From: the human T2T-CHM13v2.0 reference genome, Homo sapiens
NCBI RefSeq assembly: GCF_009914755.1
Contig: NC_060935.1
DNA: 64,000 nt
Direction: 5' to 3' (one strand)
This document shows, one piece after another, positions 1-64,000 of the stretch. Positions within the stretch are counted from its first letter, which is position 1. Each line of letters starts with the position of its first letter. The notes beneath the pieces were generated by a model, which had not been told where the DNA came from, made no database searches, and was given only the letters and a program-made list of their open reading frames with translations. Both the position numbers and the translations under genes were made by a program.

Positions 1-895
<895 letters not shown>

Positions 896-20460: not shown

Positions 20461-21379
20461 TATTATGATCAATTTTTAAAAAGAAGCATATGAGTTATAT
20501 ATCAAATGAAGTCATTTTCAAACTGGTTTTATTTCAGGAAGACTATCTCAATATCTATAAAAGTATTTAATGCACTAATGGATTATATTAATAAAAATCA
20601 GGGTCATTCATTACTTTATTCAATAAATATTTATTGAGCATCTACCATGTGTCAGGCAATATTTTGGGTGCTAGGGACACAACAGTGAATAAAAGAAGAA
20701 AAGAAATCCCTGTCATCATAGAGCTTACAATCAGTCAACCAGTAATAAAAATAAGTAAATTATATAATATAGAAAATGATATATATTATGTATAAAAATA
20801 AATGGGGAAGGAGACAGGAAGAGTCAAGGAAAGGGTAGAGGGTATAGTTTTAAGTAGGGTGGTCAGGGGAGGACTCACTAAGAAGGTAACTTTTGAGCAA
20901 AGACTTGAAGAAGGTGAGGGAGAAAGCCACGAGAAAGCCAGGAGTAGAGTATTCCAGGTAGGTTGAAATGTCAGTGCAGTCACGCTAGGCTCAGGAATAG
21001 CAGAAGTCAGTTTGGCTGGAGGATAATGGAGATGAGGAAATAAGGTTAAAGACAAAATGGGGACCACATCATAGGAACTGGTAGGTCATAATGAGAACTT
21101 GGCTTTTTCTACTAAGTGACATAGAAAGTCATTGAATGGTTTTGGGGGGAGGAGCCAAGATGGCCGAATAGGAACAGCTGTGGTCTACAGCTCCCAGCGT
21201 CAGCGAAGCAGAAGACGGGTGATTTCTGCATTTCCATCTGAGGGACCGGGTTCATCTCACTAGGGAGTGCCAGACAGTGGGCGCGAGTCAGTGGGTGTGC
21301 GCACCGTGCGTGAGCCGAAGCAGGGCGAGGCATTGCCTCACCTGGGAAGTGCAAGGGGTCAGGGAGTTTCCTTTCCGAG

Positions 21380-21595
21380 TCAAAGAAAGGGGTGATGGTC
21401 ACACCTGCAAAATCGGGTCACTCCCACCCGAATATTGCGCTTTTCGGACCGGCTTAAAAAACTGCGCACCATGAGATTATTTCCCGCACCTGGCTCAGAA
21501 GGTCCTATGCCCACGGAGTCTCGCTGATTGCTAGCACAGCAGTCTGAGATCAAACTGCAAGACGGCAGCGAGGCTGGGGGAGGGGCGCCCGCCAT
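21380..21595 (-). CDS. L1 antisense ORF0 (71 aa, open) of L1-A
   Basis: MAGAPPPASLPSCSLISDCCASNQRDSV...HPFL matches the primate L1 ORF0 pattern. Confidence 0.8.
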   Translation of the reverse strand: MAGAPPPASLPSCSLISDCCASNQRDSVGIGPSEPGAGNNLMVRSFLSRSEKRNIRVGVTRFCRCDHHPFL

Positions 21596-22050
21596 TTCCC
21601 AGGCTTGCTTAGGTAAACAAAGCAGCCAGGAAGCTCCAACTGGGTGGAGCCCACCACAGCTCAAGGAGGCCAGCCTGCCTCTGTAGGCTCCACCTCTGGG
21701 GGCAGGGCACAGACAAACAAAAAGACAGCAGTATCCTCTGCAGACTTAAATGTCCCTGTCTGACAGCTTTGAAGAGAGCAGTGGTTCTCCCAGCACGCAG
21801 CTGGAGATCTGAGAACGGGCAGACTGCCTCCTCAAGTGGGTCCCTGACCCCTGACCCCCAAGCAGCCTAACTGGGAGGCACCCCCCAGCAGGGGCACACT
21901 GACACCTCACACGGCAGGGTATTCCAACAGACCTGCAGCTGAGGGTCCTGTCTGTTAGAAGGAAAACTAACAAACAGAAAGGACATCCACACCAAAAACC
22001 CATCTGTACATCACCATCATCAAAGACCAAAAGTAGATAAAACCACAAAG

Positions 22051-23062
22051 ATGGGGAAAAAACAGAACAGAAAAACTGGAAACTCTAAAATGCAGAGCGC
22101 CTCTCCTCCTCCAAAGGAACGCAGTTCCTCACCAGCAACGGAACAAAGCTGGATGGAGAATGACTTTGACGAGCTGAGAGAAGAAGGCTTCAGACGATCA
22201 AATTACTCTGAGCTACGGGAGGACATTCAAACCAAAGGCAAAGAAGTTGAAAACTTTGAAAAAAATTTAGAAGAATGTATAACTAGAATAACCAATACAG
22301 AGAAGTGCTTAAAGGAGCTGATGGAGCTGAAAACCAAGGCTCGAGAACTACGTGAAGAATGCAGAAGCCTCAGGAGCCGATGCGATCAACTGGAAGAAAG
22401 GGTATCAGCGATGGAAGATGAAATAAATGAAGCGAGAAGGGAAGTTTAGAGAAAAAAGAATAAAAAGAAATGAGCAAAGCCTCCAAGAAATATGGGACTA
22501 TGTGAAAAGACCAAATCTACGTCTGATTGGTGTACCTGAAAGTGATGCGGAGAATGGAACCAAGTTGGAAAACACTCTGCAGGATATTATCCAGGAGAAC
22601 TTCCCCAATCTAGCAAGGCAGGCCAACGTTCAGATTCAGGAAATACAGAGAACACCACAAAGATATTCCTCAAGAAGAGCAACTCCAAGACACATAATTG
22701 TCAGATTCACCAAAGTTGAAATGAAGGAAAAAATGTTAAGGGCAGCCAGAGAGAAAGGTCGGGTTACCCTCAACGGGAAGCGCATCAGACTAACAGCAGA
22801 TCTCTCAGCAGAAACCCTACAAGCCAGAAGAGAGTGGGGGCCAATATTCAACATTCTTAAAGAAAAGAATTTTCAACCCAGAATTTCATATCCAGCCAAA
22901 CTAAGCTTCATAAGTGAAGGAGAAATAAAATACTTTACAGACAAGCAAATGCTGAGAGATTTTGTCACCACCAAGCCTGCCCTAAAAGAGCTCCTGAAGG
23001 AAGCGCTAAACATGGAAAGGAACAACCGGTACCAGCAGCTGCAAAATCATGCCAAAATATAA
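22051..23062 (+). pseudogene. L1-A ORF1, frameshifted
   Basis: MGKKQNRKTGNSK...; about 5 bp missing at ~22423 relative to L1-B (gaaataaatgaag vs gaaatgaatgaaatgaag) splits it into 132 and 211 aa. Confidence 0.92.
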
Positions 23063-23125
23063 AGACCATCGAGACTAGGAAGAAACTGCATCAACTAATG
23101 AGCAAAATAACCAGCTAACATCATA

Positions 23126-26957
<3,832 letters not shown>

Positions 26958-27161
26958 ACAATGAGATCACATGGACACAGGAAGGGGAATATCACACTCT
27001 GGGGACTGTGGTGGGGTGGGGGGAGGGGGGAGGGATAGCATTGGGAGATATACCTAATGCTAGATGACGAGTTAGTGGGTGCAGCGCACCAGCATGGCAC
27101 ATGTATACATATGTAACTAACCTGCACAATGTGCACATGTACCCTAAAACTTAAAGTATAA

Positions 27162-27204
<43 letters not shown>

Positions 27205-28429
27205 AAAAGAAAGTCATTGAATGGTTTTTAGTAGCAGAGTAGTATGATCTGACTCACACTTTAAAAGGATTTTTCTTTGCTTTGTAAAGGATAGACTGCA
27301 GAGAGGCAAAGGTGAAATCAGGGAAAGTCGTTAGGCAATTAGTTAGGGTTTTGCACTATTTCAGGAAAAAGATCATGGTGGCTCTCATCAGAATGATAGC
27401 CATGGAGGTGGGAAAATAGGGGAGAGTCATAAGGATCTCCAGAGGGATTGGATATGGGGTATGAGATGAAGAGAGGCATCAAGCATGACTCCAAGGTTTT
27501 GTCCTGAGCAACTGGAAGGATGAATTTGTCATTGGCTGAGATGGAGAAAGTTATACCTACAGCAGGTTTGGGGGAGTGGAGGAAAAAATCAGCTGTTCAG
27601 TTTTGGCTGTGTTCAATTCAAAATGTCTAGTAGACATCCAAGTAGATATAGTAAAGAGACAGTTTGATATATGATTCTGGTATGTTCAGGGGGAAAAGTC
27701 TATACCAGAGATATAAATTCGGTAGACGTCAGATGTGATATCTAAAACCAGAGAGTGAATATAGATAGAGAAGAGGACCAAGGACAGAGCCCTGGAGTAC
27801 TCCAACACGGATAGGTCAGTGAGAAGAGGAGGAGCCAGCAAAGGAGACCAAGAAGGAACAACAGGCAAGGTGTGAGGAAAGCCATGAAAATTTGATTCTC
27901 AGAAGATATGCAAAGAAATTCTATTGAAGAAAAAGGCACAAACAATTATATGAATCCTGCTAATGGGTCAGATAAGATGAAGACTAATCCCTGGCCATTG
28001 GATTCAACAAGGTGGAGGTCATTTGTGATCACAAGAGCAGTATTGATGGTTTTTGTTTCTGTGGGGGCAGAAGCGTGATATAAGAGAGTTGAAAAAAGAA
28101 CTGGAGGAAAGGAATGAAAGGTGACGATTGTAGACTGATCCTGCAAGGAGTTAATTATTAATTACAAATTTTCAAAATAACTCTAGAAGGTAAGTTTGTG
28201 TGCACTCCTTTTACAGATGATAAGACTAAGGTTGAGAAAGAATAAAGATTTAGCCCAAAATGAAAATGCTAGCAAAAGGAAGAACTACGACCTAAGCACA
28301 AATGTCTGACTCCAAAGATAAAGTTCTTCATTGTCCCATGCTTTTGGTAAACATGCGTTGAGTCCCTACAATGTATACATACTACATGAGAGTACCAATA
28401 CGTGTTTATCTGAACTATGATTTAGATCA

Positions 28430-28590
28430 CATTTCTCAGAATCATCCAAGGATGACTTGCATCAGAATTAACTAGCTGGCATCTTAAAAATTCAGATTCC
28501 TGAACCTCATCCGGGATTCATTGAATCAAAATCTCTGGGGATTTTAGCACTCCAAGAAATTCATATGTGAACCAAAGTTTCAGTTGTTCA
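28430..28590. mobile_element. MER5-like hAT fossil
   Basis: tgcatcagaatt...aaaattcagattcctgaacctcatcc...tgaatcaaaatctctgggg. Confidence 0.6.
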
Positions 28591-31039
28591 TCTAATAAAA
28601 TACGATGTTTCTTTCTAAGAATACATTAAATATATGCATTTTTAAATTTCTCCACCTTCTTTTCTTTTAATCTCATTTGCATCAAAGAAAATTTATTTGG
28701 TAACTTCCCAGCAAATATTCAATGTCCTTTTTGATAACAATTTTCATAACCAAATAAATTTGCCTAGAATAACAAACCCTACTTTTTTCTTTCTAAACTT
28801 CTCAGCATAAGTTTTCAGAATTTCGGATTATCTCACATGTTGTTATTTTTCCCTTATGATGGGGTTTTATTTAATGGCAACTAAATTAAGAAAGAACCTG
28901 CTCTTCAAATAGAATTGCTGTGTTTCACAGAGGATACGACTTGGGTTTTTAACTCAGAAGGATGGAATTGCATTGCATTGCAGAGTATTTCTCTGTGAAG
29001 GGAAAATGTACCTATTCATTGTATGCTTCAGATCATTCTCAATTTTTGCTGTTGATTGAGACAGTAGTTCCACCAGCGTTTCTGAAAATCACCCTATTGT
29101 AGACACTTGATCTCTCTTTTTTAATAATTCAGGAAATCGGTTTGCTGCACCTATTCAGAGAATGCTTTATTTTGTACCAGTTCTTTGCTTTCTATCCAGA
29201 AACAGCTGCTCCATCTCCTGTGACACAGGATGTAATAAAATGGAGTAAATGGAGTAGAGTATTTTGATAGATTAATCACTGTGGGGTATGCAGCGTTCAC
29301 AGCACTCATGGTGAAAGTGAAGAGATTATACTGGAATGACATCTGTTTTCTTCCATGTAAATTGCTAGACTTTGAATCTGCTGTTATTTAGCAGATGTGT
29401 AGATTTAATTATTAGGATTGCATAACCACTGGGGAAACCATGGGATTTTATTGATAGCTTTCCACCTACGGTAATTGCAGAATAAGTGAACTGCCTTTGT
29501 CTCCTTTGTGGAAATAAAACTAAAAAAGTTAAATCATAAGGGATGTGTTTCTTTTTCCTAAGGTGCATACAAACTAGTTGTGTTGATGCCTATGTATTAA
29601 TAAAATTTCAACAAATGCATGTAACAGTTCAACAATTATTTTCTTCACAGGCTGCAGCTAAAGACTTATTTTCAGTAAAATATTTCAGAAATCCTTATTG
29701 GTCCACATCTGCAAAACTGAGATTGCTAAGACTTTCATAGGGTTATCTACAGTTTGGGTTTAAAAAGCCCTTGGAGATTATCGGCTCCTATGTATTCATT
29801 TTATGCTTGAGGAAACTGATGAAAGAAATATAGTATCTACTAAGCAAATGCCAACTTATTCCTCAATTTCCTGGCCCCCATTCCAGCACTCAGAGCAGAG
29901 TTCATTGAGAGGAGAGAGGCCCAAATCTGTTCATAGGTTCATTTGAGTACTGTGAGACTCGGCCTTCTCAGCCTCTGCGGTTTTACCCTTGTGTGATAAC
30001 AGAAATAGCTTGAAGAGAAATGGGAGTTATTTGACAAAGTTACAGAGAGATTGTTGCTCCAGATGTCAAAGAAAAACAAAATTCAACAGTCTAGGTCTCT
30101 GGGATCTGGTCCTGCGTGTGCCACTAGTGTAATTTGGGGCCTTGACCATGTCTATTTCCTCATCTGTGCAGGGACTGGTTAGCCTGAGAAGCCACAACAA
30201 GAGTTAAAATCCAGTCCAGTGACTCTAGAATTCTACAATGCTTTCTTCTTTTTGCAAAATGCTCTTGAACCTGATATATAAAGCAAAGTGCTGGATGAGA
30301 AACTTCACTGTCCAAAAAAGGTGAATCCAGAGATCAACTCTTTCAGAAGTTCTGTGTTGTTCTGTTTGAAAAAGAAATTATATACGTTGGTGAGTTCTAA
30401 TCAAACTCAGGAATTAACTTCATATAGGATCTGCCTCCCCTCCTTTGTAAAGAAGTGGCTTTACATCTACAGAATATCAGATGTAGGTAATTTTGGCCAA
30501 AACAGACAAAGAAGCACATTTAAAATATGAAGTGCAAGAAATCAAAAGTTAAATCTACCAATAGCCATACAAAGTTTTTTTTCAATGTAATGAAACCATC
30601 TGAATATTTAAAAACCATCTGGATAATTACATGAAGTTTTCCATTTGGACTCAGATGTTTTGATGTCATGTGTATGGTTGAAGCAGAGCTGTGGCACTTA
30701 CCTGGTTAATTGGATATGGGGTGTCCATGATGTGGCATTAGGCAGAGCTCACAGAGAGGGCCCATGGAGTCACACATCCCTACAGATGTCACAGTGCCTC
30801 AGCTGCCTCCACTCCACTGTTACTATGACTGAACCACCTAGGGAGCTATGCCCACACCAGAAAGATGCCACATCCATCTTCCTCACACTCACTGTGACAA
30901 GCCTTCAGAACATATCACTCCCTGCCCTACCTGAGTGCTCCTTTGATGATCCCCCACCCCCCGGGCTCTTATCCCCATATAGGTCTGTATATCCCCTAAT
31001 CTGACTTGAGCTTCCACTGATATTTGACCTCTCTGACCT

Positions 31040-31925
31040 TCTACTATACCCTCTGAGAATTGCCACCTGTCATTGACAAAACACCCTTTATCCTTAATTT
31101 ATTCTCTGAATATTTCCTCTACTTCTGTCTAACTGAAATCTGGCTGTCCTCTGAGGATGCTGCTTTACATGTAGCCAACTCAAGTGGTGTCTTTCTATCC
31201 CACACAACTTGTTTCACTGGGTGTGGAGGGTATGAGGCTGCCCACCTTATTCCTCATTGGTGCTCAAGGACTGTTATCTCTGCCTCCTCCCTAAAACCCT
31301 TCAGCAATTTGGAAGCTCAAGCCATTAAGCCACACCATCACCTGTCCTTCCTTGTCATATTCATATCCACACCTCCAGCTCATTCCCCCTTGTTCCTCGA
31401 AGAACTTAGCACCTGTTTTACTGTGTCCTTCTACAGAAATATTCTTGTCAAAATTTGTTGCCATCATGGATAGGGAAGATATTCAAAATATTTAATCACT
31501 AGTATGAAACAGGTACCAACCAGTAGTTAATGACTATGTATTAGCTGACTATTCGTCTGTCATGTAGATGGTTTTTCCAGTCACCTGGCTTCTTAGTTGC
31601 CAAATCTACAGTCACCTGGCCTCTTAATTGCTAAATCTACTTCTTGTTCCTCATTTTACATGTGCCCTTATCAGAGAGGCCATTTCTGACCAGTTCATGT
31701 ATATTAACAATACCCCCCAACAATTGCCACTCTCTAATTTTTACCTTCTCTAAAGCACACATGATATATAATACATTTATGAGTTTACTTGTGTATTGCC
31801 TTTCTCTTTTAACTAGAATATAAGCTACATGAAAGCACTAACTTTGTTCTTTTCACTGGTGTTATCTCAGACCCTACATCAGTGCCCAACAAATAACTGG
31901 TACTCAGTAAATATTTGTGGAAAAG
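31040..31925 (+). mobile_element. L2 with an endonuclease remnant joined to the L2 3' end
   Basis: ORF 31060-31473 contains LTEIWL, GCGG and ISTPP (APE-like LTETWL/GGG/YRPP); ends tactcagtaaatatttgtgg. Confidence 0.65.
31578..31639. repeat. 31-bp imperfect tandem duplication
   Basis: cagtcacctggcttcttagttgccaaatcta / cagtcacctggcctcttaattgctaaatcta. Confidence 0.9.
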
Positions 31926-33124
31926 TACCTTTGGATCAAAAGTAGAAGCTTTTAGAGGTCAAACTGCAACATTATCACTTTTTGCTACTTAGGTTTTGAA
32001 TACTAAGTAGTTCTTCAAGAATTTTAAATGAATCAGAGAAAAACAGAATTCTACTAACTTTAAAAAGAGACTGCATTTAATGTAGGCATCCTAGTATGCA
32101 CAGAATTCTCAGCATCAACAGAAGACCATGTCTCTCTGTACCTGCTAAAAATACAGACACTTTAACCTCAGGAAATAAAGTGGTTCATGAAATATCAGAG
32201 GTGATATCTTGGGTCATGATATAGACAAACTTACAGAAATAACATCATTTCAACCTAAGATGCTAGGAATATATAAATGAAAAATAGGATTCGGTCAGTG
32301 GAAGCAACACTAAATTTCTGTCTCTGCCACACATAAGTTTCCTGTCTTCCAGAAAATAGCATTAGGAGAAGCACAATTCATTTTATTCATTTGGGGATTC
32401 GCCATATAAAATAGGATATATGGCATGAATTGCAGTAAGGGGGCACATTATTCTAAAATTTTCTAACAAGCAAGCCAAGTTTGTCAGGTTCCAAATTAGC
32501 ATTTAGTCATTTGTCCTATGAGGAAAATGCAAAATTATTTATTTATACCTCTTACAACTTTGCTTGGTTAAAGTTGTATCTGCATAATAGGCAGTGTGCT
32601 GGAAGGGAAAGGAAATATGCTTATGGCATCTGCCATAAAAAGAAGATATTAAAATGACAATGTTACTGATTTCTTGAATGTGGAGAATAAGTACTCCATG
32701 AAAAAATCATTCAGCAATAACAGGCTAAACTAAAGACTTTTATTAACAGAGCCTTCTCAGTTATTACACCCTGGACCAGAAGATAGTTTACATCTGACAG
32801 AAGGGTAGTCATCTCTGACTATGAGCCCAAGCAATGGCCCTGCTTCAACTAAAAGCTGGGAGCACAGTCCAGACAAGACGAGAGCAAGGACTTAACAAAA
32901 CCTTTTGACAAGTTTCCTTTCAAAGGAGAAAAGTAAAGAACAAATTCCAAGCTGACGGCAAAGTTTGAAATTTTTTTGTAATAGATTCATATTCTATATG
33001 TCAATTGTATTGTAATTTACAAATGATACCAATGACTTACTATATTAAAACAGGTTAGATAAAAATATACAGAAAAATAAATTTATTTTTATTATTTTAT
33101 ATAATTAAATACAAATACACAAAA

Positions 33125-33269
33125 AAATACATATGCCTGTAGCCCCAACTACTCAGGGGGCTGGGGCAGGAGGATCACTTGATCCCAGGAGTTTGAGACT
33201 GCAGTGAGCTATGATCTCCTCACTGATGGGGGCAACAAAGTGAGACCTCCATCTCTTAAAAAAAAAAAA
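33125..33269 (+). mobile_element. Alu monomer (FRAM or AluJ right arm)
   Basis: gcctgtagccccaactactc...ggaggatcacttgatcccaggag...gtgagctatgatc plus poly(A). Confidence 0.8.
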
Positions 33270-34032
33270 GCAGCATTAAAGAGACATTTGTAGACATAAA
33301 CATTTACAATTTTTGACAAGTTTTGCTTTAATCCCTATTTTCTTTAAGATATGCTTATTTTTCTATTCCTCCCTGGGTCTTGGAGAGTGAAATCTCTCTG
33401 CAAGTCATTAGCCTGAAGAGGGTCACATCCTCACTCCAGAACCATTCACTAGCAAAAAAGTGGGATTTCCCGTTTTAGACCAATGAGCCTACTGGCATCT
33501 CTAGCTACTATTTTTCAGTATCCTTTGATGGCAATTCTTTCTCCATCCATCTTTTAAACCCTAGAATCTCTCAAGATTCCATTATGTGTCCACTTATCGT
33601 TTAACTTTTGAGACTTCTTCTGGGTAATCTCATCTATTCCTATGAATTTTCATCTATATTTTGATAACACCCTAATATGTGTCTTCAGCCCAATCTTTTC
33701 CTGAGCTGTGGACTCACATATCCAACTACCTGTAGCTCTCTCTACTTGGATTCACCATCACTATAAAAATTCAAGCACATCCAAAGCTGAAGTCAATGTT
33801 GGGTCAGATGGTATTTCTGGTCCTAGATCCTTGAGGAATCGCAACACTGTCTTCCACAATGGTTGAACTAATTTATACTCCCACCAACAGTGTAAAAGTG
33901 TTCCTATTTCTCCAAATCTTCTGTAGCATCTGTTGTTTCCTGACTTTTTAATGATTGCTATTCTAACTGGCATGAGATAGTATCTCATTGTGGTTTTGAT
34001 TTGCATTTCTCTAAGGACCAGTGATGATGAGC

Positions 34033-34042
34033 TTTTTTTTAA

Positions 34043-34076
<34 letters not shown>

Positions 34077-34791
34077 CTTTAAGTTTTAGGGTACATGTGC
34101 ACAAAGGCTAATATCCAGAATCTACAATGAACTCAAACAAATTTACAAGAAAAAAACAAACAACCCCATCAAAAAGTGGGCGAAGGACATGAACAGACAC
34201 TTCTCAAAAGAAGACATTTAGCAGCCAAAAGACACATGAAAAAATGCTCACCATCACTGGCCATCAGAGAAATGCAAATCAAAACCACAACGAGATACCA
34301 TCTCACACCAGTTAGAATGGCAATCATTAAAAAGTCAGGAAACAACAGGTGCTGGAGAGGATGTGGAGAAATAGGAACACTTTTACACTGTTGGTGGGAC
34401 TGTAAACTAGTTCAACCATTGTGGAAGTCAGTGTGGCGATTCCTCAGGGATCTAGAACTAGAAATACCATTTGACCCAGCCATCCCATTACTGGGTATAT
34501 ACCCAAAGGACTATAAATCATGCTGCTATAAAGACACATGCACACGTATGTTTACTGCGGCATTATTCACGATAGCAAAGACTTGGAACCAAGCCAAATG
34601 TCCAACAATGATAGACTGGATTAAGAAAATGTGGCACATATACACCATGGAATACTATGCAGCCTTAAAAAAGGATGAGTTCATGTCCTTTGTAGGGACA
34701 TGGATGAAATTGGAAATCATCATTCTCAGTAAACTATCACAAGAACAAAAAACCAAACACCGCATATTCTCACTCATAAGTGGGAATTGAA
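34033..34791 (-). mobile_element. Young L1 (PA2/3-like) twin-primed insertion: T/(ATT)n tail, ~30 bp of 3' end, then a 690-bp inverted ORF2 C-terminal segment
   Basis: tatactttaagttttagggtacatgtgcaca joined to aaggctaatatccagaatc...gggaattgaa; TSD gatgagcttttttt at ~34026 and ~34793. Confidence 0.92.
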
Positions 34792-34925
34792 GGATGAGCT
34801 TTTTTTCACATGTCAACTGGCCACTTTTGAGAAGTGTCTGTTCATATTCTTTGCCCACTTTTTGATGGGGTTGTTTGTTTTCTTGTAAATTTGTTTAAGT
34901 TCCTTGTAGATTCTGGATATTAGCC

Positions 34926-35103
34926 CTTTGTCAGATGGATAGACTCAAAAAATGTTCTCCCATTCTGTAGGCTGCATGTTCACTCTGATGATAGTTTCTT
35001 TTGCCGTGCAGAAGCTTTGTCAGATGGATAGATTGCAAAAATTTTCTCCCATTCTGTAGGCTGCATGTTCATTCTGATGATAGTTTCCTTTACTGTGCAG
35101 AAG
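34926..35103. repeat. 89-bp diverged tandem duplication inside the older L1
   Basis: ctttgtcagatggataga...gtgcagaag x2, starting at 34926 and 35015. Confidence 0.92.
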
Positions 35104-36667: not shown

Positions 36668-36818
36668 GGCCAGGTGCAGTGGCTCACGCCTGTAATCCCA
36701 GCACTTTAGGAGGCTAAGGTAGGGGGATCACTTGAGGCCAAGAGTTCGAGATGAGCCTGGGCAACACAGCAAGACCACATCTGTACCAAAAATGCAAAAC
36801 TTAGCCAGGCATGGTGGA
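36668..36818 (+). mobile_element. AluJ, 3'-truncated just after the start of the right arm
   Basis: ggccaggtgcagtggctcacgcc...ggatcacttgaggccaagag...agccaggcatggtgg then unrelated sequence. Confidence 0.85.
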
Positions 36819-37555
36819 TGAAAGTATCATTCTGAAATACTATTCTAAATTATATGTCATAAAGGACCTTTAATAGAGACTGGGACCAAATCAAAAGAAA
36901 AATAGTGGAGAACTGAATCCCCCAGAAGACTGAATTCCTGCTGAAAAAAGAGGAATATCTTAAGGGCATAAAAGGTAACTCAGACATATCCTGTTACTTT
37001 AACGTCCAAGGCTCTGATTGCCAAGGCCTGTATCTCTGTTTCTCATTTCTTTCTCAAAAGCTTTAATTTCTTCTTAAAGTTTTGCCTTGAAGCCAAATGT
37101 ATACTTTCTTTATAATTTTAAATGGGATTATTGATCCAATCAAACCAATTTTCTGCAATCTCTAAGACATCTTAAGGCAACGGCTCAATGTCTATGTCTT
37201 GTCTGCTTAGAAGACAGACATGACAGCTAAACTTTTTAAAAATTCTCATAGGATTTTCCTGTGCTTTTCAGGTCCCTCTGGCCAGACCAGGTTCATTTGT
37301 AATGGAGATTTTGCACAGATTTCACAAGCTTTGCTAATCCCCTCCATAAGAAAGATAAGCTCGGGGCATTCAGCTTGACATATGTAGTTTCCAGAAATTT
37401 TGTCAGTGTTTCTTAGAACTTGTTTAAGGTGCCATGAAATATAGCAGTGAAATGTAAAGTGTTGGAATTGTTTTTCTAGGAAAACTCATTGTAGATGGAG
37501 AGCAAGGTATCTAATAGGATGTGGAAGTTCTAAATAAATACAAGAAGACATGAGG

Positions 37556-37625
37556 CAGCAGAGAGAAAGAGAAAGTAGCAGAGAGAAAGTGAAAGTAGCA
37601 GAGAGAAAGTAGCCAAGAGAAAGTG
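37556..37625. repeat. Short purine-rich ~20-bp tandem repeat
   Basis: agcagagagaaag(a/t)gaaagt, about 2.5-3 copies. Confidence 0.8.
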
Positions 37626-38025
37626 ATGGTCCATTCATTTGTTTATGTACTCAACATCTTCCAGTTACTGCCTACTATGTGCCAGGCAATATGCTTGATG
37701 TTTGGGGGATATGTTGGTGAATGACAGAGACACATCCCTGTCCTAACGGAGGTTTCACCCTACTGGGACACACAGGCAAGAAATTAGTCCCACTGTTCAC
37801 GGGATATTTCTTATAATCAGATTGCTCACATTTCAGTAGATATACAGAGAATACTAGAAGATGTTTACATCTTATTATTGCTCCTTATATATCCTCTGTT
37901 CTTTTAATTCTCTAGTAATCCTATTTCACTGGTACATGTTCTTATTGTTTACTCTAATTCTGAGCTCTCTGGTTGGGAGCCACTCAGATAGGCAGGCCAT
38001 TTTTTCTCATTAGAAGTCAGGTCTG

Positions 38026-38326
<301 letters not shown>

Positions 38327-38801
38327 TCAGGTCTGGTGTTGGAATCTTAAGGTGGTAAGACTTAAACCTTAAAAAAGATTAGAAAAGTATCTTGTCTAAT
38401 GATCCGATGGTGTAATAACAGGCTTTGGCCACCTCCTGGGGTCAGGAGACCTAGCATACTCATCCTCTGCCTACTCAGTCCTCATCCCTAGGCTCCATCA
38501 CTGCTTGTCATGTGGTCCACCCATTTGTGGAAGACAGAGGTTGGGGAAGCCAATTCAATTCTCTTTGGAAAAACCTCAACACAGCCCAAAGTTTTATCCA
38601 CACAAGATCATTGCAAGTCTGAGTGTGGCTTGCCTTAGGAGAGACATGTAACCAGTCCCAGGACTTAGAGTTGAGGAGAAGGGAAATTAAAATGTCCATT
38701 TCCTAAAACCTCTACAGATTCTCAAGTTCTAAATCTTTAACTATGCAGACTTACGGCATTTATTTTGAAAAAGTCATGTTATTCAAAATAATAGCTGCTT
38801 C

Positions 38802-38950
38802 GGGAAGAATAGCTAATGGATGCTGGGCTTAATACCTAGGTGATGAGATGATCTGTGCAGCCATGTGCACCATGGCACACATTTACCTATGTATCAAACC
38901 TACACATGTACCCCTAAACTTAAAATAAAAGTTGGAAAAAAGGAAAAAAA
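38802..38950 (+). mobile_element. Short 5'-truncated old L1PA 3' end (PA12-14-like)
   Basis: gctaatggatgctgggcttaatacctaggtgatg...cttaaaataaaagttggaaaaa. Confidence 0.8.
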
Positions 38951-40504
38951 TAGTAACAGCCGCTACGAATTAACCAATTATTTTGTTTCAGGAATTAAAA
39001 TTGCTTCCAGTCCTGCCACTAATTAATTGGTTATGTGATCACAGCAGTGTCATAGACCTCCCTGTGCCCATTACCTTTCTGTAAAATAAGGGAATTGGAA
39101 TAAAAGACCTCTAAAATCTGCTTTTAAGACTCCATAATATGAATCTCTAGTACTCTTTGGACAGCAGCACTCTTCAGATGATTGTGGTCCCTTGAAATCT
39201 GGTCCTAAGCTTCCTGTCTGGCTGTGTCTTTCCGACTCCTCTGAGTGAACTTCCTCTGCAGCCAAACTAATTCTACTTCACATGAGTTACACAGCTGTTC
39301 TCCTTCTTGAAATACCTTCCTCTATCCTAACTCTCTGAAATCTGCACTGTTGGGAAAGGCTGTCCTCCAGGGGCCCTAAGAATCCATGCACATTATTGCT
39401 GAGTGTGCCAAACTTTAAGAACAACTCGACCTACCACAGGCACTGCTTCTATCTGGGCTCATTGCCTCTCCCTGTGGGACTTACAGGCAGAAGAACAGAT
39501 AATTTACATTCCTTTCCTGTGCTGTGAGATTTAAGTTCTTACCTTCATCCATTGTCTCATCACCTGCTTTCAGTGCCTATGGCATGGTGGCAGATTTACT
39601 CCTGACCATCCTCTATGAGGTCAGCGTGCTTCCCTGACACAGGCACTCAGAAAGACCAAAGTAAATTTCTATCTTCTCTGCAAATAACCAAAGTTTCAAA
39701 GACTTTTCCATCATCCTTTGAACATCTATGTGTTGAAACTAAAAAGATATGTACCACAAGGAGGGCACAGAAACTGAGGGAGGTTACCATGGCTCCAGTT
39801 CTAATTCTCAGTTTTGAAAGTGATTTGTTATATCCTTGTCACAGGATTGATTAGGCGTGGGGAAAATGACTCCAGTAAACCAAACTCACAACTGACTGAA
39901 GTACAAACAGGGACCCAATTTGTTCATTTACCGTGAGAAATATAACTCTTATGTTCATCTGAAATGTATCTGTCAGTATGACAAAACATTCTCTCACCAC
40001 AGGAAGATCTGTTTGGGAAACCAAATTACAGTCACACGATTGCTTAGTGAGCACAGAATCCGAGTTAAGGGAGTTGGTGAAGTGAGGCTAGTATTTATGA
40101 GTGGAGGCCAAGCTTATGGATCTTTCTTGCGTTACAGATTTATCCACCATAAAAAGGGACAAATCAAGTTCTTGGTGTAGGGCAACCTTCCTCAGAGAGC
40201 ACTTCACTTTTGTTTATGTTCCATTGCTGCCCATCCATCTATATTTTTGTGGGTCCTTCCTCTTCACTGCAGCTTTAGCTATTAGACCTTGAACTTGAAT
40301 GTGGTGGAAAAGAGACTTGATGTGTTAAAGTTCCTTTTGCCTCTATCTAATTTGTCTCCACCTAAAGTTTCATTTGTTTCAGAGCTATGAAGGGCAGGAG
40401 AGGTACAGGAGAGTTACTGAAGGCTCTTTTTCAATGTACCACAATTTAAGAAATTACAATTGTTTTTAAAGATTGTGCCAACTTTTAGGCATCCCTGAGG
40501 TCAA

Positions 40505-40917
40505 TGTTGGGTGATGCATGCCCCTCAGATTCCCTTTATCAGACCTGTACTCCCATCCCTAGCTGATGTAAGTATTGGATGGCTGCCTCCAGCTGATGGA
40601 GCTGCCACTCTGAGGATTTACACATATCCCTACCCCATGGTGTGTGGGGTTATCCCATAACCAATGACTAGCCTACGTTGGGGTAGAAAAGCTACCTTGC
40701 TGGCTTGGTGAAGTTTATGGACCACAGTCCCCAACCCCAATCCCTAGTTCAAACTGAGACTAGACTTGATCTGAGAGCACATCCTTACTCAGCAAATTGT
40801 CCTTGCCTTTCCTCCTCTGCTCTGTCCCTAACTGGTCTTTCAGAAGAGCACTCCAGCAATAAGTCCCACATCTCAATCTCTGTCTCAAGCTTTACTTCTA
40901 GGGTGCCCAACCTAACA
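40505..40917 (+). mobile_element. ERVL LTR16-like solo LTR
   Basis: tgttgggtg...cagattcccttt...gagcactcc...tctcaagctttacttctagggtgcccaacctaaca. Confidence 0.55.
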
Positions 40918-43900
40918 GAGCTCATAACAAATATCCTTTCCCCATCTTCCTGCTACTTCTCTAGCATCCCTGGTGGGCTTATTCCTCTCCCTAGATAAGG
41001 TCTATGCTGGTTCTATAGAAATAGAGTCAGAGAACTAAGATCAGGCATGAGGAGCCTACTAGCTAGGATCCCTCTGCACAGGATATAGAGGACAGGGATA
41101 TATCTGAGAAAAGGTACCCTGATGCTTACCCCTAGATACTGGAATTGTTATTTTACAGCCCTGACAGTTTCTGTAGGTGCTTTCTGTGTCCTCCGCCTGT
41201 AAGTTTTCCCTAATAACTGATAGTATTTTCTATCCAATTTTTTTTTACTTTTTAAATACTTTTTACTTTGGTTTAAATGAAGAGGAACAGGACAAACAGA
41301 GCATGGGCATAGCGAAGAGACATGAGTGGGACTATTCAGGGGACAATAAGGTTATGCCTGGAATGCCTAAGAGCAACAAGGAAAGGAGAAAGATCTTCCC
41401 ACTGAAAGGTTTACAGTTCATTCTGTCTGGAGCCCGGGACAGAGCAAGGAGGAGTCAGGAAACAAAGAACATGGCCCTCAGAGAATCCAGATGGTTGGCC
41501 ACAGGGTCTCCAGTTAGGGCAATGCCCCCCACCACCACTGCCCCACAAGAAACCCAGTCATTCAAGACCAGACACTAAATCCCAGCCTTATCCTGACTTC
41601 ACAAACTTCAAGACATCTCCTCATAAAAGCAGGAAGACTGAAGAACTGTTAAAAAAAAATGCACAGGAGCCACCAACCACAAAAACAGCTCAAATTCACA
41701 CCCATAATGTGACTGTGACCTCAGCACCATAGCCACAAGCACCGTAATTGCCTCTCCACCTCCTAAGAATGATCCTCCTGATATCTGGAACCAGTTATCA
41801 CTCATATTTGCATCCCTCGCCTTACACAGAAGGTCTTAGCACTGAGTAGTCCCCATCTAAATGAGCCCATCCTCCCCAGCACCACACCTCCCCCTGTTCT
41901 ACCACTCTACTTAAACCCAGTTCATTTTCTTCATAACACACACCACAACTTGAAAATATGTATGTATTCCTTTGTTTCCCTTTTTACTGTCAGTCTCCCT
42001 CACTAGCTTGAGAGCTCCATACAACAGTAACTGTATTTATTCACCATCATGACAAAAATAAAAAACAGTATTTGACAAAAGTAGTATAGACTTCACCAAT
42101 ACTGGTAGAATGATTGAATGAATGCTGATGACATGGTGAAAAGTGTTGGAGCCAACTATAGTTTTGGCCCTTTAATTCAGAACAGGAGCTTATCTTCAAA
42201 CACCAAGTCTGAGCTTGGCACCAGGACCAGATAAGGGTTGCAGTACTTCTTGTTCCCTGATGCTTAAAGAATAATTGGGTTATAGGGATAGTTAAAAGGA
42301 CTGAGTAGAATTTGGTGATTAGCAATGAAATAGAAGAAAATTGACAGGAAAAGAGCTTTTGCAGTAATCCTCTTTTATGCCATTTTTATCTCAGAATGCT
42401 GAAGGGTTTTCCATATGTATCATGTTTTCAGTTCTTAGTTTTCAAATGTGTACTTTATACAGCTTCAAAAGAATAATTGGCAACATATGAATATGCATGT
42501 GCATATTTATGATATTGCATCCATCAGCACAATATTACCTTTCCTCCTGCGTTTAAAATGTATACCTTTTGCACTTTAGAATAATGAGTCTACATGGATT
42601 GGTGTCAAACAAACGGTTCTACCATTCTTTATTAGTTTTCCTTTCATAGTACTTTATGCCAAGAACAAACACCATATTCTTTGAAGGTTGTTTTTATAGA
42701 ATCCTTTCTCAGGTGATACAGAAAAAGAAGAGCTTGCCTCTGAATAGGACTGCATACATTGGATTAAATCCCCTGAGCACTACTGTCAACAGTAAACAAT
42801 ACCTTTATTTCATTCAAGATCTCAATTCTGTCAGTTTTTCCAATTAACCTGTCAGCCACTTTCCAACTTTTAACCCTGTAAATGAAAGCTGGCCCTCCTT
42901 TATCACTATGCCAAGTCCTCTGAGTCTCCCTTACACTAAATACATTTGCTAATAATTTTCTGTTCGCTTCTGTTTATCAGCTCACAGTCACCTAATGCTA
43001 TCCTTTCCACTCAGTATGCCCAGGCCACCCCTCTCATAATTAATATTAATGGAGCATGTACATGCTTAATATACATAATCTTATTTAATCCTTACAAGAA
43101 CCCTATGAAGTGCCATATCAGAGTTCTCAGATTGCAAGCAATGGAAATCAACTTTAGCTAAATTAAGCAAAAGGAAACTTACTGGAAAAATACTGGAGTC
43201 CTCATTACCAATGGGAAGGGTAGAAAGCCAAGCTTAGAAATGAGCAGAAGCTAAGGCATCTCCAGAGAACTAGGAATCCAAAATTATAGGGATAATGTGT
43301 GATGAGAACTATAGTACAATCAACAAGTAAATGCTAACACTTACATGTTGCTAATTGTGTGCTAGATAATGTTCCAAGCATTTCACATAATACATATGCA
43401 CATATCACAATGTATAGTAGATATCCATTTTTCTCTGTTTGGTGTCTGTCTATCTCAAAGCTTGAAAGCTCCATGTGGACAGAAATCATGTGTACTGTAT
43501 TTACTGATGCATACCTAACGCCAAGGATGTAGTCAGCATATAGGATAAGATAGGTACCCTTAACACTCCCATTTTACACATGACGAAGCATGCACAGGAA
43601 GGCTAAATAATTCCCAAAGTCATGCAGTTGCAGTGTATGGTGTATCCCTAGAATCTGTGCCCTTAACCACCATACTATAATTTCATCCACTTTTAGTCAT
43701 TTTATTTCTCTGGTCAAGTTCAGACTCCAAAGGGCCTATCCAGTTGGTATTCACAGGGTGACACATATTCCCATTATCTCAGGAAGGGTTGATTACCAAT
43801 TCACTGAGGAAGCAATGATTCCTCCGAAGGAATTCAGGATATTATAAGATAAATAAAATGGGAGGTCAAAGAATGACAAACATCTTCTCACAATAACCTC

Positions 43901-43995
43901 CAGGTTGAAACCATTATCTTCTCCATTTTACACATGAGGAAAGTGAAGCAAAAGTCTATGTTATAATTCTCTACTTCTATGGTGACAAAGCTAAG

Positions 43996-44414
43996 AGTAT
44001 TGGGTTGAATAGTGCCTTCCCAAAACTCACATCCATCCAGAATCTATGAATGAGACCTTATTTGGAAACAGGACTTTTGTCAGTGTAATCAAGTTGAGGT
44101 CACACTGAATTAGGGAAAGCCCTAATCTCATAATTAAGGTCCCTACAAGAGGAAATTTTGGACACAGATACAGGAAGAGGGAGAATGCCATTTGAAAACT
44201 GAGGCAGAGATTGGAATGATGTGTCTACTAAATAAGCGCCAGAAGCTAGGAAGAGGCAAGGACAGAGCTCCCTTACAGCCTCAGAGAGAGCATGGCCATG
44301 CTAATACTTTGATTTTTGACTTCTGGCCTCCACGATTGTGAGAGAATATATTTCTGCTGTTTTAAGCCACATAGATTGTGTTAATTTGTTACAGCAACCC
44401 TAGCAAATTAATAC
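43996..44414 (+). mobile_element. MLT1B/C MaLR LTR
   Basis: gtattgggttgaatagtgcc...gaccttatttggaaacagg...gttttaagccac...gcaaattaatac. Confidence 0.8.
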
Positions 44415-44609
44415 GCTAATGCTCACATTAATATTAAATAACTTATCCTAGATAACAGAACTTATAAGTGGCATAGACTGCATTACATGTTTCCTCTCTT
44501 TTACTTTGCCTCCAACCCTCATGCCCCACTATACCTTCAATCCTTAACTACCCAGCAGTCTTCCCTAGATTGCCTAATTCTCCCCTGACTCTGACAAACT
44601 GCTATCTTT

Positions 44610-44825
44610 GTTTAACTTTTACTTTAGGTTCAAGGGTGCACATGCAGGTGTGTTATACAGGTAAATTGTATGTCAGGGAGGTTGGTGTACAGATTACTTC
44701 TTCACCCAGGTGATAAGCATGGTTCCCAAAAGGTAGTTTTTTAATCCTCACCCTCCTCCCACGTTCCACCCTCAAGCAGGCCCCAGTGTCTGCTGCTCCC
44801 TTCTTTGTGTTCATGGGTACTCAGT
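44610..44825 (-). mobile_element. L1PA15/16-like 3' end
   Basis: ttttactttaggttcaagggtgcacatgcagg...ccctcaagcaggccccagtgtctg. Confidence 0.8.
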
Positions 44826-45220
44826 CTAACTGCAGTCTTGACCACTGATCTACTTCCTGTCAAAATGATTCTAAGTAGTACTTCATTATCCACAGCCTGT
44901 TCAATGTTCTATTAATAAGATAAACTGGTGTGCTAATTTAGAAATCAATAGCACACAGTTATGTAACATTTTCATTTAAAAATGACTCCATAAAAACCAA
45001 TATCTTTTTTTTTATTATTATTATACTTTAAGTTTTAGGGTACATGTGCACATTGTGCAGGTTACATATGTATACATGTGCCATGCTGGTGCGCTGCACC
45101 CACTAACTCGTCATCTAGCATTAGGTATATCTCCCAATGCTATCCCTCCCCCCTCCCCCCACCCCACCACAGTCCCCAGAGTGTGATATTCCCCTTCCTG
45201 TGTCCATGTGATCTCATTGT

Positions 45221-49044
<3,824 letters not shown>

Positions 49045-49107
49045 TATGATGTTAGCTGGTTATTTTGCTCATTAGTTGATGCAGTTTCTTCCTAGTCTCG
49101 ATGGTCT

Positions 49108-50124
49108 TTACATTTTGGCATGATTTTGCAGCGGCTGGTACCGGTTGTTCCTTTCCATGTTTAGCGCTTCCTTCAGGAGCTCTTTTAGGGCAGGCCTGGT
49201 GGTGACAAAATCTCTCAGCATTTGCTTGTCTGTAAAGTATTTTATTTCTCCTTCACTTATGAAGCTTAGTTTGGCTGGATATGAAATTCTGGGTTGAAAA
49301 TTCTTTTCTTTAAGAATGTTGAATATTGGCCCCCACTCTCTTCTGGCTTGTAGGGTTTCTGCTGAGAGATCCGCTGTTAGTCTGATGGGCTTCCTTTTGA
49401 GGGTAACCCGACCTTTCTCTCTGGCTGCCCTTAACATTTTTTCCTTCATTTCAACTTTGGTGAATCTGACAATTATGTGTCTTGGAGTTGCCCTTCTCGA
49501 GGAGTATCTTTGTGGCGTTCTCTGTATTTCCTGAATCTGAACGTTGGCCTGCCTTGCTAGATTGGGGAAGTTCTCCTGGATAATAACCTGCAGAGTGTTT
49601 TCCAACTTGGTTCCATTCTCCGCATCACTTTCAGGTACACCAATCAGACGTAGATTTGGTCTTCTCACATAGTCCCATATTTCTTGGAGGCTTTGCTCAT
49701 TTCTTTTTATTCTTTTTTCTCTAAACTTCCCTTCTCGCTTCATTTCATTCATTTCATCTTCCATCGCTGATACCCTTTCTTCCAGTTGATCGCATCGGCT
49801 CCTGAGGCTTCTGCATTCTTCACGTAGTTCTTGAGCCTTGGTTTTCAGCTCCATCAGCTCCTTTAAGCACTTCTCTGTATTGGTTATTCTAGTTATACAT
49901 TCTTCTAAATTTTTTTCAAAGTTTTCAACTTCTTTGCCTTTGGTTTGAATGTCCTCCCGTAGCTCAGAGTAATTAGATCGTCTGAAGCCTTCTTCTCTCA
50001 GCTCGTCAAAGTCATTCTCCATCCAGCTTTGTTCCGTTGCTGGTGAGGAAGTGCATTCCTTTGAAGGAGGAGAGGCGCTCTGCGTTTTAGAGTTTCCAGT
50101 TTTTCTGTTGTGTTTTTTCCCCAT
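49108..50124 (-). CDS. Intact L1 ORF1p (338 aa RNA-binding nucleic-acid chaperone)
   Basis: Full-length ORF; REKG, ARR and YPAKLS motifs retained. Confidence 0.92.
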   Translation of the reverse strand: MGKKHNRKTGNSKTQSASPPSKECTSSPATEQSWMENDFDELREEGFRRSNYSELREDIQTKGKEVENFEKNLEECITRITNTEKCLKELMELKTKAQELREECRSLRSRCDQLEERVSAMEDEMNEMKREGKFREKRIKRNEQSLQEIWDYVRRPNLRLIGVPESDAENGTKLENTLQVIIQENFPNLARQANVQIQEIQRTPQRYSSRRATPRHIIVRFTKVEMKEKMLRAAREKGRVTLKRKPIRLTADLSAETLQARREWGPIFNILKEKNFQPRISYPAKLSFISEGEIKYFTDKQMLRDFVTTRPALKELLKEALNMERNNRYQPLQNHAKM

Positions 50125-51032
50125 CTTTGTGGTTTTATCTACTTTTGGTCTTTGATGATGGTGATGTACAGATGGGTTTTCGGTGTGGATGTCCTTTCTG
50201 TTTGTTAGTTTTCCTTCTAACAGACAGCACCCTCAGCTGCAGGTCTGTTGGAATACCCTGCCGTGTGAGGTGTCAGTGTGCCCCTGCTGGGGGGTGCCTC
50301 CCAGTTAGGCTGCTTGGGGGTCAGGGGTCAGGGACCCACTTGAGGAGGCAGTCTGCCCGTTCTCAGATCTCCAGCTGCGTGCTGGGAGAACCACTGCTCT
50401 CTTCAAAGCTGTCAGACAGGGACATTTAAGTCTGCAGAGGATACTGCTGTCTTTTTGTTTGTCTGTGCCCTGCCCCCAGAGGTGGAGCCTACAGAGGCAG
50501 GCTGGCCTCCTTGAGCTGTGGTGGGCTCCACCCAGTTGGAGCTTCCTGGCTGCTTTGTTTACCTAAGCAAGCCTGGGCAATGGTGGGCGCCCCTCCCCCA
50601 GCCTCGCTGCTGCCTTGCAGTTTGATCTCAGACTGCTGTGCTAGCAATCAGCGAGATTCCGTGGGCGTAGGACCCTCCGAGCCAGGTGTGGTATATAGTC
50701 TTGTGGTGCGCCGTTTTTTAAGCCGGTCCGAAAAGCGCAATATTCGGGTGGGAGTGACACGATTTTCCAGGTGTGTCCGTCACCCCTTTCTTTGACTCGG
50801 AAAGGGAACTCCCTGACCCCTTGCGCTTCCCAGGTGAGGCAATGCCTCGCCCTGCTTCGGCTCACGCATGGTGCGCGCACCCACTGGCCTGCGCCCACTG
50901 TCTGGCACTCCCTAGTGAGATGAACCCGGTACCTCAGATGGAAATGCAGAAATCACCCGTCTTCTGCGTCGCTCACGCTGGGAGCTGTAGACCGAAGCTG
51001 TTCCTATTCGGCCATCTTGGCTCCTCCCCCCC
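50125..51032 (-). promoter_or_regulatory. L1-B 5'UTR internal sense and antisense promoter with YY1 site
   Basis: CpG-rich 5'UTR; YY1 motif gccatcttg at 51011-51019. Confidence 0.8.
50580..50795 (+). CDS. L1 antisense ORF0 (71 aa, open) of L1-B
   Basis: MVGAPPPASLLPCSLISDCC...RCVRHPFL. Confidence 0.8.
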   Translation: MVGAPPPASLLPCSLISDCCASNQRDSVGVGPSEPGVVYSLVVRRFLSRSEKRNIRVGVTRFSRCVRHPFL

Positions 51033-51184
51033 AAAAACCAATATCTTAACCCAAAGCCCCCATGATCATAGGGGATGAAGAATGGGCGGCAACTATAAAG
51101 AATTTCATCCTTTGGCTTACACCACACAGATGACTAACAACTCTGCTCTTTTTATAAAAATATTGGCATATGGCCTCTTAGGCC

Positions 51185-60028: not shown

Positions 60029-60091
60029 AGACCATCGAGGCTAGGAAGAAATTGCATCAACTAACGAGCAAAATCACCAGCTAACATCATA

Positions 60092-63899
<3,808 letters not shown>

Positions 63900-64000
63900 A
63901 CAGTGAGAACACACAGACACAGGAAGGGGAACATCACACACCGGGGCCTGTTGTGGGGAGGGGGGAGGGATAGCATTAGGAGATATACCTAATGTAAATG

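What the first reader, a model, noticed from the sequence alone, without database searches (positions are those of the whole stretch)
21144..51032. L1-A and L1-B, inverted ~6-kb arms around a 17.8-kb spacer, share at least 9 private variants
Seen: shared bases at A/B positions 21637/50538, 21672/50503, 21734/50441, 24481/47691 (RPIT>RRIT), 24791/47384 (HIKK>HMKK), 24803/47372, 25118/47057, 25838/46337 and 25890/46285 (KPEEN). L1-C has the ancestral base at each. A and B have different TSDs and differ at other sites (ATKD/ATKA, PTKW/PTTW, YPKD/YPND, IKKD/IKND, LANW/LASW), so they are independent insertions and not a duplication. Inference: patchy arm-to-arm conversion, as in palindrome arms. 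Descent from one minor L1PA2 lineage is the alternative explanation.
Basis: partly seen in the sequence, partly recalled or inferred. Interest (0 to 1): 0.7.

Follow-up and report, generated by a model that had tools for sequence, protein, structure and literature searches.

The report
Neighbouring LINE-1 copies swap sequence patches
Five separately inserted human LINE-1 copies lying 7 kb to 2.2 Mb apart share short patches of rare mutations, two of the patterns found nowhere else in the genome, most likely because one copy was used as a template to repair another, which would mean that old jumping-gene copies keep overwriting their neighbours over longer distances than reported for Alu repeats.

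Summary
Observation confirmed. A (21144-27179,+) and B (45001-51032,-) are 97.2% identical, separate insertions with intact, different TSDs. Eight of the nine alleles are absent from all 27-29 unlinked copies covering them; 21637C is not private (4 of 27). Shared descent is unlikely: A and B fall in different sublineages, A carries B-lineage alleles only beside or inside the shared patches, and no unlinked copy in the motif lists holds more than two of the alleles. The exchange is not confined to the arm pair. One motif occurs at exactly three places in the genome (B, C, and copy Y about 190 kb from B); B's 3-bp deletion motif at exactly two (B and copy X, 2.2 Mb away, identical to B over 558 columns, 4% different elsewhere). 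Elsewhere in the genome, copies sharing a rare allele lie under 100 kb apart in 9 of 9,659 pairs against 3 of 30,527 control pairs, in both orientations, though 3 of 5 allele lists show none. Best reading: proximity-dependent non-allelic gene conversion among L1 copies (inferred from one genome). The process is known for Alu (about 10 kb) and segmental duplications; this range for L1 was not found in nine searches.

The parts
21144..27207 (+). L1-A, full-length L1PA2-type copy of the older sublineage, with A-rich tail; ORF1 and ORF2 both interrupted
   Evidence: subfamily name recalled, not from a call
21123..21143 (+). 5' copy of A's 21-bp target-site duplication
27208..27228 (+). 3' copy of A's target-site duplication
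45007..51032 (-). L1-B, full-length L1PA2-type copy of the younger sublineage; ORF1 open (49108-50124, 338 aa), ORF2 split by a frameshift; hub of the local sharing
51033..51047 (-). 5' copy of B's 15-bp target-site duplication
44992..45006 (-). 3' copy of B's target-site duplication
57992..64000 (+). L1-C, older full-length copy (93% to A and B, longer 5' UTR), runs off the window; shares rare alleles with B and Y
21598..21946 (+). Patch 1: 349 columns identical in A and B (B 50229-50577); holds 21637C, 21672A, 21734T; Y shares the first two
24427..24540 (+). Patch 2 in A (B 47632-47745): 24481G; B-lineage allele 24418C lies just 5' of it, beyond two CpG-site differences
24775..24836 (+). Patch 3 in A (B 47339-47400): 24791G and 24803T
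25062..25120 (+). Patch 4 in A (B 47055-47113): single allele 25118C, the weakest patch
25774..26020 (+). Patch 5: 247 columns identical in A and B (B 46155-46401); 25838T, 25890G and the B-lineage allele 25858C
47285..47838 (-). Stretch of B identical over 558 columns to copy X (G000:C11:98.28 Mb, L032), including B's 1-bp and 3-bp deletions
46514..46968 (-). Stretch of B with six rare alleles shared with C in five small patches (three of them also in Y)
62161..62618 (+). Matching stretch of C; 141 columns of it are identical to Y
27229..44991 (.). Spacer between A and B, in its pre-insertion orientation as judged from the matched TSDs

Best explanation
A and B are separate L1 insertions from different sublineages that share five short patches of rare alleles, most likely copied after insertion by non-crossover gene conversion, and the same process likely links B with C, Y (about 190 kb away) and X (2.2 Mb away). 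Shown: separate TSDs, different lineage alleles, patch-wise identity of 59-558 columns, genome-wide rarity of the allele combinations, and no net inversion of the spacer. Inferred from lineage markers: B gave to A (24418C, 25858C), B gave to X (24418C), C gave to B (old-type 25361T) and C gave to Y (25629C in a 141-column identical run); each direction rests on one or two columns. Inferred from established recombination biology, not tested: a germline break or nick inside one L1 invades a physically near L1, copies some tens to hundreds of bases (synthesis-dependent strand annealing) and is resolved without crossover, with patchy mismatch repair; repeated events over millions of years, later overlaid by new mutations, give the mosaic. 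Partner choice likely follows closeness along the chromosome (excess below 100 kb, weaker to 1 Mb, none beyond in the genome-wide lists), not a fixed arm pair.
For: 8 of 9 alleles in 0 of 27-29 unlinked copies; 8 private non-CpG alleles against 0-1 in 269 of 276 pairs. At 19 lineage-marker columns A follows L008/11/22/24/25/27 and B the younger group; A has the younger allele at 24418 and 25858, which 0 of its 6 lineage mates have. Tree: B inside starred clades of 12 rows (96) and 15 rows (98) that exclude A. The shared sites lie in longer identical runs than chance (mean 186 against 110, p 0.013) and cluster (p 0.011); A/B's 349-column run beats A against all 22 other young copies (best 280). 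Motif lists: outside A, B and X only two copies hold two alleles (chr4, chr16), none three. One motif has 3 hits in the genome = Y, B, C; B's deletion motif has 2 = B, X. X equals B over 558 columns and differs at 94 of the other 2336; best run of X against 29 controls is 225; 0 of 20,000 simulations reach 558. Unrelated neighbour pairs: 9 of 9,659 against 3 of 30,527 under 100 kb, p 2.8e-4, 4 direct and 5 inverted, none with aligned 3' flanks.
Against: One genome only; no ape orthologue or second haplotype, so no event is polarised by an outgroup. The AU test does not reject an A+B clade on all non-CpG columns (p 0.071, log-likelihood 39.9 lower). Overall A/B identity (97.2%) is no higher than A against unlinked copies (up to 97.3%), so the converted share is small. 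The run-length and cluster tests are modest (p about 0.01) and the patches were drawn after seeing the data. Three of five allele lists show no pair under 100 kb (25838T 0 of 4753, 24481G 0 of 780, 25118C 0 of 528); without the list in which the pattern was noticed p is 0.010. Two of six neighbour pairs share no further rare allele in 1.2 kb. The L1 fragments in the spacer and at 1-890 share almost nothing. No GC bias among the local shared alleles (7 W>S, 5 S>W), although a bias is reported for this process. Exact-match motifs miss copies with a second mutation in the motif; 16 of 116 hits of 25838T were not listed.
Confidence: 0.85

Rival explanations
1. Palindrome-type exchange: the inverted A/B pair folds back and converts arm to arm, and inverted geometry is what drives the sharing.
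For: A and B are inverted; B, the only minus-strand copy, is inverted relative to A, C, Y and to the matching segment of X and takes part in most local sharing. Somatic recombination between repeats under 100 kb apart is biased to inverted pairs (10.1101/2020.07.02.163816, passages).
Against: Same-orientation sharing exists: C and Y (141-column identical run), A and Y (24196C), chr1 pair with 7 and chr18 pair with 4 further rare alleles; 4 of 9 neighbour pairs are direct. Partners at 190 kb and 2.2 Mb are not palindrome arms. Arms are not homogenised (97.2%).
Confidence: 0.2
2. A and B descend from one minor source element that already carried the alleles.
For: AU test does not reject an A+B clade (p 0.071). 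True siblings with about as many private alleles exist (L028/L029, 10 alleles).
Against: A and B carry different lineage markers and sit in different clades, whereas L028/L029 are sisters at 99. No third copy with more than two of the alleles except X, and X only in one stretch. Does not explain B/C/Y or B/X.
Confidence: 0.03
3. Repeated inversion of the 17.8-kb spacer by crossovers between A and B, with conversion at the breakpoints, mixed the arms.
For: Inverted 6-kb, 97% repeats are a usual substrate for such inversions (general knowledge; PMC9675761, abstract listing only).
Against: Each element still has its own matching TSDs. Lineage markers moved one way: A gained B-type alleles, B shows neither A-type marker at 23789 or 23910. 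Cannot explain C, Y, X. No row found for estimated coordinates in two supplement searches, a weak test.
Confidence: 0.08
4. Assembly or polishing error: reads from one L1 copy overwrote another in T2T-CHM13.
For: The B/X stretch has no mismatch in 558 columns, as a mis-polished patch would; I could not see reads or a second assembly.
Against: Most shared alleles are interleaved with copy-specific differences, including CpG decay, as expected of old events. Mis-mapping among thousands of L1 copies has no reason to prefer chromosome neighbours.
Confidence: 0.04
5. RNA- or cDNA-templated conversion from a transcribed copy (B has an open ORF1) rather than DNA-to-DNA repair.
For: B is the likely donor to A and X. 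cDNA-mediated conversion is described for yeast Ty and Tf2 (PMC6598467).
Against: The old copy C is the likely donor to B and Y; a diffusible template would not favour neighbours.
Confidence: 0.07

Closest known systems
Non-allelic gene conversion between neighbouring Alu elements (Aleshin and Zhi 2010, seen only as described in PMC8230782 and PMC6598467)
   Same: Separately inserted retrotransposon copies share non-diagnostic mutations as a function of distance; mosaic subfamily markers; old-to-young and young-to-old transfer.
   Different: Reported range about 10 kb; here L1 copies 7-190 kb and once 2.2 Mb apart, with an excess to 100 kb and weaker beyond.
Interlocus gene conversion in human segmental duplications and gene duplicates (PMC10172114; 10.1101/135152)
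   Same: Patch-wise copying; mean tract about 250 bp in gene duplicates matches the 59-558 columns seen; donor-acceptor distances can reach megabases.
   Different: Those substrates are duplications with few partners; here each copy has thousands of 93-98% partners in the genome yet neighbours are picked. No GC bias seen in the small local set.
Arm-to-arm conversion in X and Y palindromes (recalled)
   Same: Inverted repeats around a spacer exchanging sequence without net rearrangement.
   Different: Arms here are independent insertions, 97% identical, not homogenised, and exchange involves further copies and direct orientation.
L1-L1 recombination: break repair by conversion from endogenous LINEs in mouse cells (Tremblay 2000, seen only as cited in PMC3055243); somatic L1/Alu NAHR (10.1101/2020.07.02.163816); 35 recombinant L1 calls among 2,267 HPRC loci (PMC13192797)
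   Same: L1 copies can serve as repair templates for each other; proximal intrachromosomal pairs are favoured in somatic crossovers; mosaic L1 loci exist.
   Different: The passages I saw treat crossovers, a cell-culture break, or remove recombinants as noise using lineage donor groups; none maps fixed conversion patches to named neighbouring donor copies.

Membership tests
Non-allelic gene conversion between transposon copies | Copies are separate insertions, not a duplication | tested here: met
   Different intact TSDs for A, B; own TSDs or flanks for X, Y
Non-allelic gene conversion between transposon copies | Shared derived alleles confined to patches while the rest of the element has another ancestry | tested here: met
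   AU test on all columns inconclusive (p 0.071)
Non-allelic gene conversion between transposon copies | Non-reciprocal transfer, flanks not exchanged | tested here: met
   TSDs matched; B-type markers in A, no A-type markers in B; rests on few columns
Non-allelic gene conversion between transposon copies | Rate falls with distance | tested here: met
   9/9,659 against 3/30,527 under 100 kb, no excess beyond 1 Mb; 3 of 5 lists contribute nothing
Non-allelic gene conversion between transposon copies | GC-biased outcome | tested here: inconclusive
   7 W>S and 5 S>W among shared, 54 and 47 among private alleles
Non-allelic gene conversion between transposon copies | Unconverted state seen in an orthologue or another haplotype | not testable with these tools
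   no ape or pangenome sequence held; HPRC L1 supplement unreadable
Sex-chromosome-type palindrome arms | Arms arose by inverted duplication | tested here: not met
   independent insertions of different sublineages
Sex-chromosome-type palindrome arms | Arms homogenised to near identity (recalled: above 99.9%) | tested here: not met
   97.2%
Sex-chromosome-type palindrome arms | Exchange confined to the two arms | tested here: not met
   C, Y and X take part
L1-mediated inversion (NAHR crossover) | Chimeric elements with swapped TSDs | tested here: not met
   TSDs matched in this haplotype
L1-mediated inversion (NAHR crossover) | Inverted allele segregating in people | tested here: inconclusive
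   no hit for estimated coordinates in two supplement searches; main inversion catalogue not held
L1PA2 subfamily | About 6.03 kb, short 5' UTR lacking the older ~129-bp segment, GAG near position 5930 (features recalled) | tested here: met
   gap against C, 3' UTR print; no named consensus library was available, so late L1PA3 is not excluded for A

The most novel reading that the evidence does not exclude
Across the human genome, L1 copies form local exchange neighbourhoods of roughly 100-300 kb with occasional megabase jumps, so rare alleles shared among fixed L1 copies are a fossil map of which stretches of a chromosome touched in the germline, and young L1 sequences, ages and lineage trees are routinely mosaics of their neighbours.
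Probability: 0.45. Interest if true: 0.8.

Novelty: new variant of a known kind. Interest (0 to 1): 0.6.

Why it matters
L1 copies are usually treated as mutating alone after insertion, and are dated and placed in lineages on that basis. If neighbours overwrite each other in patches, ages and source-daughter trees are biased, deletions and point changes spread between copies without transposition (a frameshift deletion is shared by B and X), and the distance curve of rare-allele sharing becomes a direct, genome-wide measure of how a broken end chooses among thousands of near-identical templates in the human germline. The test needs only existing complete assemblies.

Tried and rejected
C as outgroup: rejected, 337 columns are A=B≠C. 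21637C as private: rejected, 4 of 27. L031 and L033, the two distant hits of the 24791G+24803T motif: 86% old copies with none of the other alleles except 25838T in L031. A/C sharing at 24196: alignment artefact at a 1-bp gap in C; 23513T/23516A are also in the two 86% copies, so may be old-lineage alleles. chr2 neighbour pair L035/L036: no further private allele with the larger panel. L047/L048's 36 shared alleles: no age-matched control, not counted as support. Spacer fragments and the copy at 1-890: at most one rare allele per pair. GC bias as the reason why some lists show neighbour pairs: suggested, but the A>C list 25118C shows none and the local set shows no bias. The tree inside the patches joins A and B but is circular and was not used as proof. 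Known inversion at this locus: nothing found; GRCh38 coordinates were my estimate. Dropped before the neighbour counts: A, B, X and the chr1 pair that supplied the 25993 motif; the two 5' UTR lists and the 5-hit list were left out (one is dominated by acrocentric duplicates).
Full report
Anatomy. Self-comparison shows A (21144-27179, +) and B (45001-51032, -) at 97.2% over 6052 columns, and an older copy C (57992 onward, +) at 93%, 84% in the 5' UTR. A and B each keep a matching, different target-site duplication, so they are separate insertions and the 17.8-kb spacer is not inverted in this haplotype. A's two reading frames are interrupted; B has an open ORF1 and an ORF2 split by a frameshift. 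The label L1PA2 rests on recalled features (length, short 5' UTR, 3' UTR triplet).

The observation. All nine sites are A=B with another base in C, but so are 337 columns. I therefore took the 29 unlinked copies that a genome search with A returned (22 young, 7 older; a sample of 30 scored out of 20,492 candidates). Eight alleles are in 0 of 27-29 copies; 21637C is in 4 of 27. A and B alone carry 8 non-CpG alleles; 269 of 276 young pairs carry 0-1, three carry 2, two carry 4, and L028/L029 carry 10.

Shared descent tested. At 19 lineage-marker columns A has the pattern of L008, L011, L022, L024, L025, L027 and B that of the younger group; A shows the younger allele at 24418 and 25858, which none of those six has, and both columns lie at shared patches. 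In the tree B sits in starred clades of 12 and 15 rows without A, while L028/L029 are true sisters; the AU test does not reject A+B (p 0.071), a result against my reading that is expected if the patches pull the two together. Exact-motif scans of the whole genome gave 55, 6, 43, 5, 34, 116 (100 listed) and 37 places for the seven motifs. Single alleles thus recur, but outside A, B and X only two copies hold two of them and none holds three. The eight sites fall in identical runs of 349, 114, 62, 59 and 247 columns (mean 186 against 110 expected, p 0.013; clustering p 0.011).

The exchange goes beyond the pair. X (L032, chr11:98.28 Mb, a 5'-inverted truncated copy with its own TSD) is identical to B over 558 columns, including a 1-bp and a 3-bp deletion, and differs at 94 of the other 2336; the deletion motif occurs only in B and X. 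X has ancestral lineage markers except 24418C inside that stretch, so B to X is likely, and the lack of any mismatch makes it recent (inference). Y (L034, full length, chr11:100.295 Mb, 166 kb from A, within the annotated span of CNTN5) shares 21637C and 21672A with A and B and three alleles with B and C; that motif occurs only in Y, B and C. B shares six rare alleles with C within 455 bases, in five patches broken by differences; the old-type 25361T in B and 25629C in Y point to C as donor, on one column each. L1 fragments in the spacer and at 1-890 show at most one rare shared allele per pair.

Is it general? The hit lists allow an internal control: pairs within one allele list against pairs across lists, with the ascertained copies dropped. 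Under 100 kb: 9 of 9,659 against 3 of 30,527 (p 2.8e-4); 100-300 kb: 8 against 8 (p 0.022); 0.3-1 Mb: 17 against 28 (p 0.028); no excess beyond. The nine close pairs come from two lists; three lists give none; without the list where I first saw the pattern p is 0.010. Four pairs are direct, five inverted. All nine were fetched in part and none aligns past the L1 3' end, so they are not tandem duplications as far as 3' flanks show; 5' flanks were not seen. The chr1 pair shares 7 and the chr18 pair 4 further rare alleles, the chr2 pair none; 4 of 6 pairs of the second list share a further allele against 5 of 84 cross pairs, one of the four lacking an age-matched control.

Mechanism. Shown: separate insertions, patch-wise identity, rarity, intact flanks. 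Inferred: direction of four transfers; repair of a germline break from a physically near copy without crossover, with patchy mismatch repair. Rivals are listed with odds; an inverted-orientation preference remains open because B, the only minus-strand copy, is the local hub.

Literature. PMC6598467 (parts 1-2 of 4 read) and PMC8230782 (passages) describe Alu conversion within about 10 kb. PMC10172114 (section 7 and passages) and 10.1101/135152 (passages) give conversion in duplications, a mean tract of 250 bp and a GC bias. 10.1101/2020.07.02.163816 (passages) reports somatic L1/Alu crossovers biased to inverted pairs under 100 kb. PMC13192797 (passages) removed 35 recombinant L1 loci of 2,267; its supplements, which may list A and B and their alleles, could not be read. 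Tremblay 2000 was seen only as cited in PMC3055243; Aleshin and Zhi 2010 only as cited. Nine full-text searches showed no paper on distance-dependent conversion among fixed human L1 copies or on this locus; subscription journals are largely outside that library, so this is weak evidence of novelty.

Verdict. Real, and wider than reported: a small network of likely conversion among neighbouring L1 copies, with a first sign that it is genome-wide. Known process, new range and substrate; one genome, no outgroup. Interest 0.6.

Noticed in passing
window 21137-21143, 27222-27230, 44991-44999, 51033-51040: The unrelated target sites of A and B both end in the same short G/T motif followed by A, so the self-match runs 7 bases past both 5' ends; may be chance or a second-strand cutting preference.
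   Followed up: no
window 34033-34798 inside 33800-35879: A young 5'-inverted (twin-primed) L1 with a very short uninverted 3' end sits in an older minus-strand L1, at a point that falls within the L1 region that the insert itself covers; it shares no rare allele with A, B, C, X or Y.
   Followed up: partly
window 1-890: 3' part of another 5'-inverted L1 (92-95% to A), cut by the window edge.
   Followed up: partly
L028 (G000:C13:41.65 Mb) and L029 (G000:C14:24.56 Mb): Unlinked pair with 10 private non-CpG alleles spread over the whole length and sisters in the tree: a likely true source-sibling pair, useful as a contrast.
   Followed up: partly
A and L008 (G000:C11:6.24 Mb): Four scattered private alleles and sister placement (93): likely A's nearest lineage mate, on the same chromosome.
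   Followed up: partly
G000:C1:79.97-80.57 Mb (L037, L038, L041, L042 and one more): Five L1 copies within 600 kb carry the same rare allele out of 80 in the genome; a second likely exchange neighbourhood. Another run lies at G000:C3:87.6-89.6 Mb.
   Followed up: partly
L047 and L048 (G000:C2:183.81-183.82 Mb): Two old copies, inverted and 8 kb apart, 95% identical to each other but 86.5% to A; possibly strongly homogenised, no age-matched control.
   Followed up: partly
G000:C11:98.65 Mb and 96.92 Mb: Two of the 33 other copies with the 25118C motif lie 1.8 and 3.5 Mb from A; not fetched.
   Followed up: no
window 23513-23517: Four clustered changes in A, two matching C and much older copies and one matching Y: a possible micro-patch from an old L1.
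   Followed up: partly
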